Virus record (IMG/VR): IMGVR_UViG_3300042350_003801 | Length of the DNA: 64,000 bases | Source of the DNA: a virus | Lineage: Duplodnaviria; Caudoviricetes | Reading direction: 5' to 3' (one strand) | Shown: positions 22,023 through 26,689 of the stretch, one piece after another | Position numbering within the stretch: the first letter of the stretch is position 1 | How the letters are laid out: every line of letters starts with the position of its first letter | The notes under the pieces: model-generated | The model's input: only the letters and a program-made list of their open reading frames with translations | What the model was told of the DNA's origin: nothing | Database searches by the model: none | Position numbers and translations under genes: made by a program

Positions 22023-23825
22023 TTAAACGAACAGGTTCAAGATTGAATCTTTAGAAAGTTCATTTGGCTCCAAAATAACATCCGCATTTTCTTTCTTTGT
22101 GGTGATTGTAAAAATATCACTAAGTCGGATAAAATTCTCGGATTGAGAAAGAATAGCAGACTGTGCAATTTTGTCCTTTTCTTTATAAGAACTTACAATA
22201 CCTTCACCAAAGAATTGGTCAATAAGATAGAAATTTACCCCAGTATTATTTTCATTGGGCTTTAGTAGTCCAAGAATTTTCTGCCGATAATCCATCACAC
22301 AATCAACCGAAAATAGAATTTTGTTTGAATCAATCATATAATTGGAATTAATTTTATCTCCATAACCAATAATAATTTTATATTGTTGATTTTCTGGGGC
22401 ACTATATCGGTTAAGTTTGATTAGGTATTCTCCATCAAGTTTATGGCAGTAGAGCCATTCCGATGCGCCATTGTGAGCACTCGTTACATCACCAGAATAG
22501 GAAAGACCGCCGCCGTTATGTCGTGAGTTCCAACCAATTTTTCCATTAACATTTACGGCTGACAAATCTAAATCAGAATGAGATTGAGTATTTTTCCAGT
22601 AAACTCCAACCAAAAGACTTTGAGACTCTTCATATGGAACTGAAATTTTTGTATATTTTGGAATGTTACCAGAGAACATTTTTTCAGAAACTGGAACTGC
22701 GTAATCAACAAAAGGAGCAGTATAGATTTTTGTATCCTTTTTTTGAGTTTTTACGGTTTCGAGCAATGTGAAAAGATTTTGTTGAATCTGCTCCATCGTG
22801 AGCGTAGATGGCTTAGTTTTTGCAAAACTTTTACCATTTCGGATTTTATAGTACCGATTGTCATTATCGGTCAAGTAAAGTTTTGTTGCACTGATAGCCC
22901 TAAGAATTTGAAAAATGCTTGCATTTTGCATTGCATCAGTCAATTCTTTACGAGAATACATCTTGGAAGTAAGACTCCCCAAAACATTTTCTGCAAGAGG
23001 AACGTGATGAACTTTTGCAAGTTTTGCAATACGGTTAACGATCCTAGAGTTATTTTTATTGAATTTAAAGGCGAGCCAAAGTGGCTTATAGCGATGAAAA
23101 GACTTAGATAGTTCAACAATCTGTGATTCTGAAGTAATCAGAACATTCAAATCAAAACGAGAAGACTTAATGTTAGTGATCAGTTGAGAATTTTTAATAA
23201 CCAATGTTTCTTTAGTTGCAGTATAAATCAGATAGCGAAACAGTTCTTCCCCATTTTTAGGAAGAATGCCAGTCAAATCAACAATAAGAGACTTTGCCTC
23301 CTTGTTTGCAATTTTTTCGTTACCGGTGAAAATATAACCGCAGTCTGCAAGTACATTCAAAATATTTTGAATTGTGTCTTGCTGTAGTGCAATTTTAGCA
23401 TTCAAAAACTTAAAACAAGATGCATTAAGATTTTCCTTACTAATTCCTTTAATAACACGAAGTTTTAGAGATTTAGGCGAATCGGTTGCGAACTCGTCAG
23501 TTGGGATATAAACATATTCTGGCGAGTCAAGACCCAAACTCATCAACCCATAGGTTGTAAAGTAATGTAGAATTTGGTCTCGTAGACGTTCAATAAGAGT
23601 TACAGATTGAACTTTTGTCCAAGATTTATAAAAAGAAGTATTGTTAAGTTGCGAATTTTGCAGAGTTGTGGATTTAATTTCACTCAAAATACTATCTTTA
23701 AGGTGCATTGCCGTTGGTGCAATCACAACACCAAGTTCTTGGTCAATATAAAAATCGTTAGAAATTGGATTGCTTCGGCCAATAACGGCACCAAAAAGAA
23801 GAAGAGAAGAGGAGATGTTTTTCAT
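22023..23825 (-). CDS. 600-aa protein with C-terminal TerD-like segment
   Basis: DLDLSA...YSGDVTSA..GASE resembles TerD-family motifs; N-terminal FYKSW..QILHYFTTYG. Confidence 0.65.
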   Translation of the reverse strand: MKNISSSLLLFGAVIGRSNPISNDFYIDQELGVVIAPTAMHLKDSILSEIKSTTLQNSQLNNTSFYKSWTKVQSVTLIERLRDQILHYFTTYGLMSLGLDSPEYVYIPTDEFATDSPKSLKLRVIKGISKENLNASCFKFLNAKIALQQDTIQNILNVLADCGYIFTGNEKIANKEAKSLIVDLTGILPKNGEELFRYLIYTATKETLVIKNSQLITNIKSSRFDLNVLITSESQIVELSKSFHRYKPLWLAFKFNKNNSRIVNRIAKLAKVHHVPLAENVLGSLTSKMYSRKELTDAMQNASIFQILRAISATKLYLTDNDNRYYKIRNGKSFAKTKPSTLTMEQIQQNLFTLLETVKTQKKDTKIYTAPFVDYAVPVSEKMFSGNIPKYTKISVPYEESQSLLVGVYWKNTQSHSDLDLSAVNVNGKIGWNSRHNGGGLSYSGDVTSAHNGASEWLYCHKLDGEYLIKLNRYSAPENQQYKIIIGYGDKINSNYMIDSNKILFSVDCVMDYRQKILGLLKPNENNTGVNFYLIDQFFGEGIVSSYKEKDKIAQSAILSQSENFIRLSDIFTITTKKENADVILEPNELSKDSILNLFV

Positions 23826-23833
23826 TATTTTTA

Positions 23834-24089
23834 GGCGAAAGGTAATTTTTTAAGAGTTAGGAACCTTTTGTGCCAAGGTTGTTTTTGACGGGTAGTAAAA
23901 CCTGCAAATTGTTAAAAGGAACTACCTATGTCAAAGAAAACAGTCGTGTGCACACCAATTAGTTCATTTGTGGCGAACAGTAAAAACGTCCAAGTTGTGT
24001 TAAAAGGAACTGTTTATGCCAGGGTTGTTGCAGACGAAAAGTAAATTTTGGTGTGCCTTAGAGGCGCGAGTGAAGGAACTTTTTGTGTC
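23834..24089 (-). ncRNA. array of four covarying hairpins (candidate structured leader/small RNAs)
   Basis: Units 24033-24089, 23972-24020, 23887-23932, 23834-23874; identical architecture with compensatory stems; promoter (palindrome+CATAAT) just upstream. Confidence 0.7.
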
Positions 24090-24493
24090 GGCGGTTTTGC
24101 TTGTGTACTCCGTTATTATGGCACGGATTCTGATGAAATGGTGGAAGAGTGTTGCACTTTTGCAACTGGCACACCACCTAAATGAACTCGGCCAAATAGT
24201 AGTCTACATTCACTTCAAGTTTGGCTGCTTCTACTTCATATTCTTTAATTTTTTCGTGGTCAATAAACAAATCAATAGACTCGTCTGAAATGATGTTTTC
24301 TTTGTCAATCATCAGAAAGTGAAATTAATTGTATTGCAGTCATTTCAAATACTCGTCAATTTTTTTGTTTTCGTGATTGTCAAAGATGAAAGAATGGCCG
24401 AAAGACTCGGCCATTGCATAAGAGATCTCAAAGGCTTCGTTAAGGTCGTCAGTGTTTACAGACTCACCATTACCGTGAACCGTATAACGGTAT

Positions 24494-24751
24494 TCACTCT
24501 GCATCTACGGGCATCTCACGCACGGGGAGGTATTGATCATAAAGAGCATCCTCATTTGCAAGAATGAGGTCGTTAATCTCGTCTTCAGTTTCAGGTGCAA
24601 CTGCAATACCATTAGCCTCTGCAAGAGCGGCAATAGCATTTTCTTGTGCTTCAGTATCACCATCAAAAAGGTCTGCCATAATAAGAGCAACCTCTTCGGC
24701 AGCAGTCAGGTTCATTTCGGTGGTAGCTTCAGTTTGAATTAGGGCGATCAT
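24494..24751 (-). CDS. small acidic protein
   Basis: 85 aa, very Asp/Glu/Ala-rich. Confidence 0.65.
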   Translation of the reverse strand: MIALIQTEATTEMNLTAAEEVALIMADLFDGDTEAQENAIAALAEANGIAVAPETEDEINDLILANEDALYDQYLPVREMPVDAE

Positions 24752-25217
24752 AATGAGAGTTGTTTGGGAACAGAATCAATATAGGGCAGTTTTGGCTACC
24801 CCCGTTAATCAGGCAGACAGTTCAGCAACTGGAACAGTTGTTTCTTCTTCTGCCAGTTTTGCAACTACAAAATCAAGTTGATTCAATAGTTCATCGCCAG
24901 TCTCCGCAGATTCTAGCGATTGCATTGCAGTTTTAAAATCAAGTTTAGTTAGTGTCAAATTCATCATCCAAAAGTTGTAAAAGGGCTGGGTCTAGTTTTT
25001 CTTGAAGTTGTGAGCCAAAGTCATTTTCTTCAAAAAGTTGATCGTCAAGTGCTTCAATAGGATGCATCATCAAACTCCGGTTGTTCTGTTTGTTCTTGAG
25101 AATCATCAGTGATTTCCTCTGATAAAAGGGTGTAGAGACTGTTGGTTTGAGTTTGAGCTTCTTCAGGGTCGGTTGACATATTTTTAAAAGTAGAGAACAA
25201 ATGATACAAATCTAGAA

Positions 25218-26222: not shown

Positions 26223-26689
26223 AATTTATCAAAAAGAGGAACAAACAATAAATCCTTACCATCGTCCAAAAGCGTGTGCATACCAATTAGTTCATAAGTG
26301 GCATTCCAGGCGGCATCCCCGGCGGCATCCCTGGCGGCAGCCCAGGCGGCAATCCTGGCGGCAGACATGGCGGCATTCCTGGCGGCAGCCCCGGCGGCAT
26401 CCCTGGCGGCATCCCTGGCGGCATTCCAGGCGGCAATCCTGGCGGCAGACATGGCGGCATTCCTGGCGGCAGCCCCGGCGGCAGCCCAGGCGGCATTCCT
26501 GGCGGCATCGTCTAGGGCATGATAACGGCGGGCAACTTCATTCCATTGGTTCTCGGTAAGACCATCAATAAACCACCAGAAGTTAATGACGGTTTCGTAG
26601 TTTGGTCCTAGAAAATTCTGTGGATTTGTTAGGGCTTCAGGTTTTTGAAGGCAGTTGGAGAAGTTTTGATGTGCTTTTGAGTGTTTCAC
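26219..26689 (-). CDS. GPNY-family paralog with 17 AAxx repeats
   Basis: Repeats at 26303-26506. Confidence 0.85.

What the first reader, a model, noticed from the sequence alone, without database searches (positions are those of the whole stretch)
23945..23974. Central spacer of the hairpin array matches the GPNY paralog family (27/30 nt)
Seen: cgtgtgcacaccaattagttcatttgtggc (23945-23974) vs cgtgtgcataccaattagttcataagtggc in the family (e.g. 15457-15486, also the 26219 and 35092 copies). This is the [10 protein letters not shown] segment that begins exactly where the 12-nt arrays end. Inference: either a guide-like spacer directing a protein to the repeat boundary, which would link the RNA array to the diversification system, or a recombination relic at the GCCAC junction. 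The family fragment at 33508-33591 joins a promoter hairpin at the same codon position, so this junction is a hotspot in either case.
Basis: partly seen in the sequence, partly recalled or inferred. Interest (0 to 1): 0.8.

Follow-up and report, generated by a model that had tools for sequence, protein, structure and literature searches.

The report
Strain-specific paralog scrap in RNA-array linker
The "spacer" is a real copy of about 22 bases from a repeated phage gene family, but it is a recent 27-base insertion found only in this strain, so it is an ordinary recombination scar and not a guide RNA.

Summary
The match is real: 27/30 to three paralog genes, 0 of 100 shuffles. It does not support a guide.

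- **Where it lies.** It sits in the 5' leader of a 600-aa gene, in the linker between hairpin units 2 and 3.
- **Absent in relatives.** Four relatives (82-94% protein identity) keep all four hairpins and the paralog family. They lack exactly 27 nt (window 23940-23966). A tree with the 82% relative as outgroup makes this an insertion on the window's own branch.
- **Not an artefact.** Independent assemblies of the same strain carry it.
- **What was copied.** Only 22-23 nt came from the family (21/22 identical to four local copies). Five filler bases (ACTGT) follow.
- **Orientation.** The copy has the same sense as the family mRNAs.
- **Linker length.** Linkers in 52 related arrays have a median of 14.5 nt. 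This one is 12 nt without the insert.

Its alternative, a recombination relic at GCCAC, is supported.

The interesting object is the array itself. The same hairpin unit flanks homologues of this TerD-like protein in more than 60 phage contigs. Its loops often carry tRNA-like modules that score as sub-threshold YrlA (Y RNA-like), and no Ro60 gene was found.

The parts
23940..23966 (-). 27-nt strain-specific insertion. Placement is ambiguous by 1 nt (23939-23965 fits equally).
   Evidence: Absent from L001, L002, L003 and L006, present in the same-strain assemblies L004 and L005 (alignments A1 and A2). Contigs from other runs cross it without differences.
23945..23966 (-). The part copied from the paralog family's C-terminal box (codons for Y/N-E-L-I-G-V/M-H-T). 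It is 21/22 identical to four local copies. The single difference (G for A) makes a perfect 10-nt palindrome, GTGTGCACAC.
23940..23944 (-). 5-nt filler ACTGT, found neither in the family nor in relatives' leaders. Together with the next T it repeats the 3' arm of unit 2 (ACTGTT).
   Evidence: The origin is inferred.
23967..23974 (-). Ancestral leader sequence GCCACAAA: the closing GCC of unit 2 plus the start of the linker. With the next T it gives 7/9 microhomology to the family's GCCACTTAT.
   Evidence: Present in the three closest relatives L001-L003 (92-94%); in L006 (82%) only its GCCA aligns and the rest of the linker is shorter.
23933..23939 (-). The rest of the ancestral 12-nt linker (TTTCTTT).
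23972..24020 (-). Hairpin unit 2 (GGC-ATA-AACAGT-TCCT...ACTGTT-C-GCC).
23887..23932 (-). Hairpin unit 3.
   Evidence: L006 carries a compensatory change (GGCAGT/ACTGCC).
24033..24089 (-). Hairpin unit 1.
   Evidence: L006 carries a compensatory change (GAAAGT/ACTTTC).
23834..23874 (-). Hairpin unit 4.
24115..24166 (-). Promoter-like element of the leader: palindrome GTTGCA-AAAG-TGCAAC (24166-24151) and CATAAT (24120-24115).
   Evidence: Read from the sequence. It is conserved in relatives, and the box recurs across the window.
22023..23825 (-). 600-aa gene served by the leader. The protein has an N-terminal helical domain and a C-terminal TerD-like beta-sandwich.
15457..15479 (-). Candidate donor: the C-terminal box of paralog 15394-15828. 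Identical boxes lie at 26273-26295, 35146-35168 and 43303-43324.

Best explanation
The stretch is a recent, strain-specific 27-nt insertion into the normally 12-nt linker between hairpin units 2 and 3 of the 5' leader of the 600-aa gene. About 22 nt were copied from the C-terminal box of one of the genome's own tetrapeptide-repeat paralogs, and 5 filler bases follow. The copying was seeded where the ancestral leader (GCCACAAAT) already resembled the family (GCCACTTAT). The likely cause is a short template switch, or microhomology-guided ectopic repair, during recombination-dependent replication. It is a scar with no guide function. It is tolerated because linkers between the hairpin units vary in sequence and are probably discarded if the array is processed into separate small RNAs. 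Shown: presence or absence, boundaries, polarity, donor similarity, left-junction microhomology, sense orientation. Inferred: the molecular mechanism, the origin of the filler, and neutrality.
For: 1. Relatives L001 and L002 (94% protein identity), L003 (92%) and L006 (82%) keep all four hairpins and lack exactly these 27 nt.
2. A protein tree places the L006 lineage outside the clade holding the window, L001-L003 and their kin (support 100/98). One gain on the window's branch is therefore the simplest account.
3. L004 and L005 are independent assemblies of the same strain (99.98-100% DNA identity) and carry the insertion. Contigs of two further runs cross it with no differences. It is not an assembly artefact.
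4. The only significant non-self similarity of the whole leader inside the window is 23 nt at 22/23 to four paralog copies, E 7e-5.
5. The window's own copies fit better (21/22) than the relative L002's copy (20/22).
6. The relatives do hold the family's C-terminal box, but nothing family-derived lies in their leaders.
7. GCCACAAAT in the leader matches GCCACTTAT in the family at 7/9 next to the junction. I estimate about 1e-3 by chance for one fixed alignment.
8. In 52 linkers from related arrays the median length is 14.5 nt and 50 are 6-24 nt. This one is 39 nt, or 12 nt without the insert.
9. The copy is on the same strand as the family genes, so the leader RNA is sense to their mRNAs.
Against: - No exact donor was found. 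Every sampled family copy has A where the insert has G, and none continues with ACTGT. Only 64 kb of a roughly 250-kb genome could be read.
- The right junction shows no clear microhomology.
- No expression or processing data exist, so neutrality is inferred.
- The insert-bearing strain occurs in many lake metagenomes. The insert is at least not strongly harmful, and a benefit cannot be excluded.
Confidence: 0.82

Rival explanations
1. Guide-like spacer. The linker RNA, held between hairpins, directs the 600-aa protein or another effector to the repeat boundary of the paralog genes or their mRNAs.
For: The match is far beyond chance. It lies between structured repeat units next to a large protein of unknown function, and it corresponds to the first unique sequence after the 12-nt repeats.
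Against: - It is absent from every relative that keeps the array and the family.
- 8 of the 30 nt are ancestral leader sequence.
- The RNA would be sense to the mRNAs.
- The other two linkers are 12 nt and match nothing.
- The units are four different hairpins fixed in position, not identical repeats.
- The 600-aa protein shows a helical plus TerD-like fold with no nuclease domain detected.
Confidence: 0.03
2. The 27 nt are ancestral and were lost from the relatives.
For: Short deletions between microhomologies are common, and the three lineages closest to the window form an unresolved fork.
Against: The outgroup L006 also lacks the segment. At least two independent deletions with identical boundaries would be needed. 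The more distant arrays (L007, S-CRM01 and the IMG/VR loci) have short linkers as well.
Confidence: 0.04
3. It is a remnant of a whole paralog gene that once sat between units 2 and 3 and was later almost entirely deleted.
For: Family genes and fragments are scattered through the genome, for example the C-terminal fragment at 33508-33591 in another leader.
Against: This needs two events instead of one, and no intermediate was seen in any relative. The left junction sits inside ancestral leader microhomology, as expected for direct short-tract copying.
Confidence: 0.07
4. It is an off-target product of a programmed, site-specific recombination system that shuffles the family at the word ATGAACTA.
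For: ATGAACTA occurs 23 times on the gene strand and once on the other. Both family relics, here and at 33584, begin at it. It lies at gene starts and at the C-terminal box, so each C-terminal module is flanked by near-identical 12-mers.
Against: The strand bias follows from family homology alone. No recombinase was linked to the word. Two relics are too few. The TnpB gene at 33814-35010 was not tied to this word.
Confidence: 0.04

Closest known systems
Microhomology-associated templated insertion or short ectopic conversion tract, in a phage with recombination-dependent replication. T4-type genomes are known to shuffle at short repeated promoter-stem-loop cassettes called PeSLs (PMC2839356, PMC4122927).
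   Same: A clean presence/absence difference between close strains. A near-identical donor family in the same genome. Imperfect 9-nt homology at one junction. A few filler bases. The genome is full of a repeated palindrome-plus-promoter box.
   Different: No PeSL lies at this junction. The mechanism was not observed, and no exact donor was found in the 64 kb available.
CRISPR spacer or other guide RNA (crRNA, TnpB omega-RNA)
   Same: A short stretch matching other DNA of the same genome, lying between structured repeat units.
   Different: The units are not identical repeats. The other linkers carry no matches. The stretch is missing in relatives. No effector nuclease is adjacent. The RNA would be sense to the transcripts.
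Y RNA-like RNAs (YrlA, Rfam RF02553) encoded beside Ro60/Rsr and processed from one precursor (PMC4201824)
   Same: This concerns the surrounding array, not the spacer. Several small hairpin RNAs lie in tandem beside one protein gene. Each has a conserved bulged stem. In relatives the loop holds a T arm, a capped acceptor stem and a D arm.
   Different: The partner gene is TerD-like, not Ro60, and no TROVE gene was found in five phage records. The stem consensus differs. Scores are 36-48 bits, below the gathering score of 69. The window's own units lack the tRNA-like module.

Membership tests
CRISPR-like array / guide spacer | Near-identical direct repeats flanking each spacer | tested here: not met
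   The four units have four different 6-bp arms and different loops. Only the architecture is shared.
CRISPR-like array / guide spacer | Spacers of similar length, each a captured foreign or target sequence | tested here: not met
   Linkers are 12, 39 and 12 nt. Only the central one matches anything in the window.
   It is absent in L001, L002, L003 and L006, which keep the array. L002 and L003 also show the family's C-terminal box within the DNA held.
CRISPR-like array / guide spacer | An adjacent effector with a nuclease domain | tested here: inconclusive
   The 600-aa protein has no Pfam or PHROG hit. Its model is a helical domain plus a TerD-like sandwich. The neighbouring small genes were not examined.
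Microhomology-associated templated insertion | Presence/absence between close strains with exact boundaries, and polarity fixed by an outgroup | tested here: met
   Alignments A1 and A2 and the tree.
Microhomology-associated templated insertion | A donor sequence elsewhere in the same genome | tested here: met
   Four local copies at 21/22. No 22/22 donor was found in the 64 kb read.
Microhomology-associated templated insertion | Microhomology at the junctions | tested here: inconclusive
   The left junction shows 7/9 (GCCACAAAT against GCCACTTAT). The right junction shows none that is clear and has a 5-nt filler.
YrlA / Y RNA-like (RF02553), for the surrounding array | Score at or above Rfam's gathering score (69 bits) | tested here: not met
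   The window has no hit at E up to 1. Relatives' units score 36-48.5 bits, E 7e-8 to 3e-4.
YrlA / Y RNA-like (RF02553), for the surrounding array | A tRNA-like module (T arm, D arm, capped acceptor) | tested here: not met
   The window's loops are 19-36 nt without such a module. The module is present in many relatives' units.
YrlA / Y RNA-like (RF02553), for the surrounding array | Encoded beside a Ro60/TROVE protein | tested here: not met
   The adjacent protein is not Ro60 by fold. PF05731 is absent from S-CRM01 and four large phage contigs, while the control genomes were positive.
TerD domain (C-terminal part of the 600-aa protein) | TerD beta-sandwich fold | tested here: met
   Foldseek matches PDB 3ibz, 2qng and 2qz7 (probability 1.0, E 7e-5 to 2e-3), and AFDB 'TerD family protein' clusters. 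The Pfam sequence model did not hit.

The most novel reading that the evidence does not exclude
The insertion could be a by-product of a programmed process and not of random template switching. The word ATGAACTA stands at every family gene start and again at the C-terminal box, and it begins both family relics seen in leaders. It would then mark a site-specific recombination or cleavage point that drives cassette shuffling of the expanded paralog family, and the leader insert would be an off-target capture. A weaker variant is that the sense copy in the linker titrates a factor that binds this box.
Probability: 0.06. Interest if true: 0.6.

Novelty: already known. Interest (0 to 1): 0.18.

Why it matters
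For the spacer itself, little. It removes an attractive but wrong link between the RNA array and the paralog family, so the array should not be treated as CRISPR-like. It also gives a dated example of a short ectopic copy seeded by microhomology in a large lake cyanophage-like genome.

The useful by-product is that the array is now much better defined. The same bulged hairpin unit, often carrying a tRNA-like module, accompanies this TerD-like protein in more than 60 phage contigs. That separate question deserves follow-up.

Tried and rejected
- **Close relatives in IMG/VR.** A search with the single protein found none. Exact-pattern scans for the family box in viral contigs and for the inserted 22-mer in metagenome contigs found nothing, so no donor or second copy could be traced there.
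- **Cultured phages.** There was no DNA match.
- **Whole genome.** None is held for the window, so the other ~186 kb could not be searched for an exact donor.
- **Rfam.** No hit on window 23000-25000 at E up to 1.
- **Leader folding.** The whole leader gives z = -0.9, so bulk folding energy is uninformative. With and without the insert, the minimum-energy fold keeps units 1-3; unit 4 is not predicted in either. No structural effect could be argued.
- **Laying public runs.** This returned only fragmentary contigs of the same strain and no variant lacking the insert.
- **Earlier findings by sequence.** Nothing was returned.
- **Ro60 hypothesis for the 600-aa protein.** Rejected. The profile search against PDB sequences was empty, the fold is helical plus TerD-like, and TROVE is absent from related phage records.
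- **57% relative (P0017).** Its record has only 15 nt upstream of the gene and no DNA was served.
- **Link to the TnpB at 33814-35010.** Considered for the junction word, but the element's ends could not be defined from the relatives available, so I dropped it.

Full report
**Observation.** The 30-mer at window 23945-23974 matches 15457-15486, 26273-26302 and 35146-35175 at 27/30. None of 100 dinucleotide-preserving shuffles gave a match. The three targets lie in minus-strand genes of 144-156 aa. These genes belong to a large paralog family. It has a conserved N-terminal box (LGPNY..V.NFW), a core that in seven copies is a run of 12-nt / four-residue repeats (A-A-x-x), and a conserved C-terminal box ([12 protein letters not shown]...F-V-P-L-F).

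**Where it lies.** All genes here are on the minus strand. The stretch is in the 354-nt gap between a small upstream gene and the 600-aa gene at 22023-23825. On the minus strand the gap holds:
- a palindrome and a CATAAT box (24166-24115);
- four hairpin units with one architecture: G-N-C, A-Y-A, a 6-bp arm ending GT, a loop starting TCCT and ending TT, the complementary arm starting AC, a bulged C, and G-N-C.

The units are at 24089-24033, 24020-23972, 23932-23887 and 23874-23834. Linkers are 12, 39 and 12 nt.

**Decisive comparison.**
- A search with the 600-aa protein found 63 relatives, and I fetched the DNA around several.
- In L001 and L002 (94% protein identity), L003 (92%) and L006 (82%) the promoter and all four hairpins are kept. 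L006 has compensatory changes in two arms.
- The central linker in these relatives is short, and 27 nt (window 23940-23966) are simply missing (alignments A1 and A2).
- The three closest relatives (L001-L003) read CGCCACAAA directly followed by TTTCTTTGAC. L006's linker is shorter still and keeps only the GCCA.
Its two 'mismatches' are ancestral bases.
- A tree of the proteins puts the L006 lineage outside the clade that holds the window and the 92-94% relatives (support 100/98). One insertion on the window's branch explains the data. Loss would need repeated identical deletions.
- L004 and L005 are independent assemblies of the same strain (99.98-100% identity) and carry the insert. Contigs of two further lake metagenome runs cross it without any difference. 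It is not an assembly error.

**What was inserted.**
- BLAST of the whole leader against the window finds one significant non-self similarity: 23 nt (23967-23945) at 22/23 to the copies at 15457, 26273, 35146 and 43303.
- Within the 27 nt, 22 are family-derived (21/22), and the last five (ACTGT) occur neither in the family nor in relatives.
- The window's own copies fit slightly better than the copy in relative L002 (20/22), as expected for an event inside this genome.
- The ancestral GCCACAAAT resembles the family's GCCACTTAT at 7 of 9 positions next to the junction. I estimate about 1e-3 by chance for one fixed alignment. This points to pairing at imperfect microhomology.
- With the following T, the filler repeats the 3' arm of unit 2 (ACTGTT). 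That is suggestive of a second short template switch, but a 6-mer nearby is not rare by chance.
- The one internal difference (G for A) creates a perfect 10-nt palindrome. I attach no meaning to it.

**Tests of the guide reading.**
- The relatives hold the family's C-terminal box (L002, L003 and L004), yet their leaders contain nothing family-derived. Their only non-leader matches are the shared promoter box.
- The insert has the same sense as the family mRNAs, so the leader RNA could not pair with them.
- The other linkers match nothing.
- The 600-aa protein has no Pfam or PHROG family. Its AlphaFold model (pLDDT 88.9) is an N-terminal helical domain plus a C-terminal TerD-like beta-sandwich. 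No nuclease domain was detected.

**Why the site tolerates it.** I scanned 65 IMG/VR loci that encode 26-43% identical homologues for the unit's architecture.
- 114 units were found, all on the gene's strand. Of these, 102 lie within 1.2 kb upstream and 12 just downstream.
- With the closer relatives added and duplicate loci removed, the same scan gave 141 units on the gene strand. Opposite strands and shuffled sequences (all loci) gave 4 hits each.
- In a test that starts only from the unpaired motif (A-N-A, four bases, GTTCCT), 129 of 159 sites have a perfect 6+3-bp partner. After shuffling the 5' stem letters, 5 do. On the opposite strand, 0 of 10 do.
- There are 34 different arm sequences.
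- Linkers between neighbouring units have a median of 14.5 nt, and 50 of 52 are 6-24 nt. The window's 39 nt is an outlier that becomes the modal 12 nt without the insert.
- Linkers are not conserved in sequence, so an insert there should cost little.

**The 'hotspot' remark.** The fragment at 33508-33591 is indeed a C-terminal family piece lying behind a promoter box. Like the leader insert, it begins at ATGAACTA. That word occurs 23 times on the gene strand and once on the other, because it is both the family's start (M-N-Y, usually overlapping the previous stop as TTATGA) and part of the C-terminal box. Shared short words of this kind are natural places for illegitimate recombination. Two cases do not show a programmed site. 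The repeated palindrome-plus-promoter boxes recall the PeSL cassettes that mediate shuffling in T4-type phages (PMC2839356, PMC4122927). I did not test that membership.

**Context worth its own study.**
- In S-CRM01 and S-CBWM1 (cultured Synechococcus phages with 43% and 36% identical homologues) the gene sits inside the tRNA gene cluster and is preceded by the same units.
- In many phages the unit's loop holds a T arm, a capped acceptor stem and a D arm. These score as YrlA (Y RNA-like, RF02553) at 36-48.5 bits, E down to 7e-8, below the gathering score of 69.
- Bacterial YrlA RNAs lie beside Ro60 and can be cut from one precursor (PMC4201824). Here the partner is not Ro60. TROVE is absent from S-CRM01 and four large phage contigs, while control genomes ring.
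- I found no paper linking a TerD-like protein to such RNAs.

**Verdict.** The match is real and homologous, but it is a strain-specific insertion scar in a variable linker. It is not a guide. Interest in the finding as written is low.

Noticed in passing
window 23834-24089 (-); L006:854-1075; L007:9803-9990; L009:1015-1480; IMG/VR loci L011-L075: The hairpin unit (G-N-C / A-N-A / 6 bp ending GU / UCCU...loop...UU / 6 bp / bulged C / G-N-C) is a widespread RNA element with strong covariation. It is tied to homologues of the 600-aa TerD-like protein in more than 60 phage contigs. It is always on the gene strand, mostly upstream and sometimes just downstream. There are 34 distinct arm sequences, and 129 of 159 motif sites are paired against 5 after shuffling. 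It matches no Rfam family at threshold.
   Followed up: yes
L009:1122-1236 (S-CRM01); L045:917-1023; L042:836-935 and 984-1063; L050, L053, L055, L072, L075: In many relatives the unit's loop carries a full tRNA-like module (T arm, capped acceptor stem, D arm). It scores as sub-threshold YrlA / Y RNA-like (36-48.5 bits against a gathering score of 69). No Ro60/TROVE gene was found in S-CRM01 or in four large phage contigs. This is a candidate Y-RNA-like partner for a TerD-like protein.
   Followed up: partly
L009 and L010 (S-CRM01, S-CBWM1), L036, L045, L046, L055: Homologues of the 600-aa gene sit inside phage tRNA gene clusters. Two loci also show tmRNA-like hits. In the window and its relatives, neighbouring genes include a CCA-adding / poly(A) polymerase family gene and, in L007, Thg1.
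   Followed up: no
window 33814-35010 (+): A TnpB / IS605 OrfB-type gene (phrog_506, E 8.5e-128; Pfam OrfB_IS605 and Cas12f1-like TNB on the identical product). It lies between a full paralog (35092-35538) and the family fragment at 33508-33591, in a segment that relative L002 replaces with about 0.5 kb. The element's ends and guide were not defined.
   Followed up: partly
window, minus strand, 23 sites (for example 35538, 35168, 35095, 33584, 33511, 26295, 26222): The word ATGAACTA, usually preceded by TT, occurs 23 times on the gene strand and once on the other. It stands at family gene starts (TTATGA stop/start overlap) and again in the C-terminal box. Each C-terminal module is therefore flanked by near-identical 12-mers.
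   Followed up: partly
window 24151-24178 and many other sites (for example 13612, 8020, 49643, 54751, 16816): A GTGCCAGTTGC-type palindromic box followed by a CATAAT-like -10 recurs through the window and in relatives. It resembles the PeSL promoter-stem-loop cassettes of T4-type phages.
   Followed up: no
window 7346-7957 (-), around 7394-7413: One repeat-type paralog keeps the C-terminal box only up to E-L-I-G and then continues with unrelated sequence ([11 protein letters not shown]...). This shows mosaic breakpoints inside the same box.
   Followed up: no
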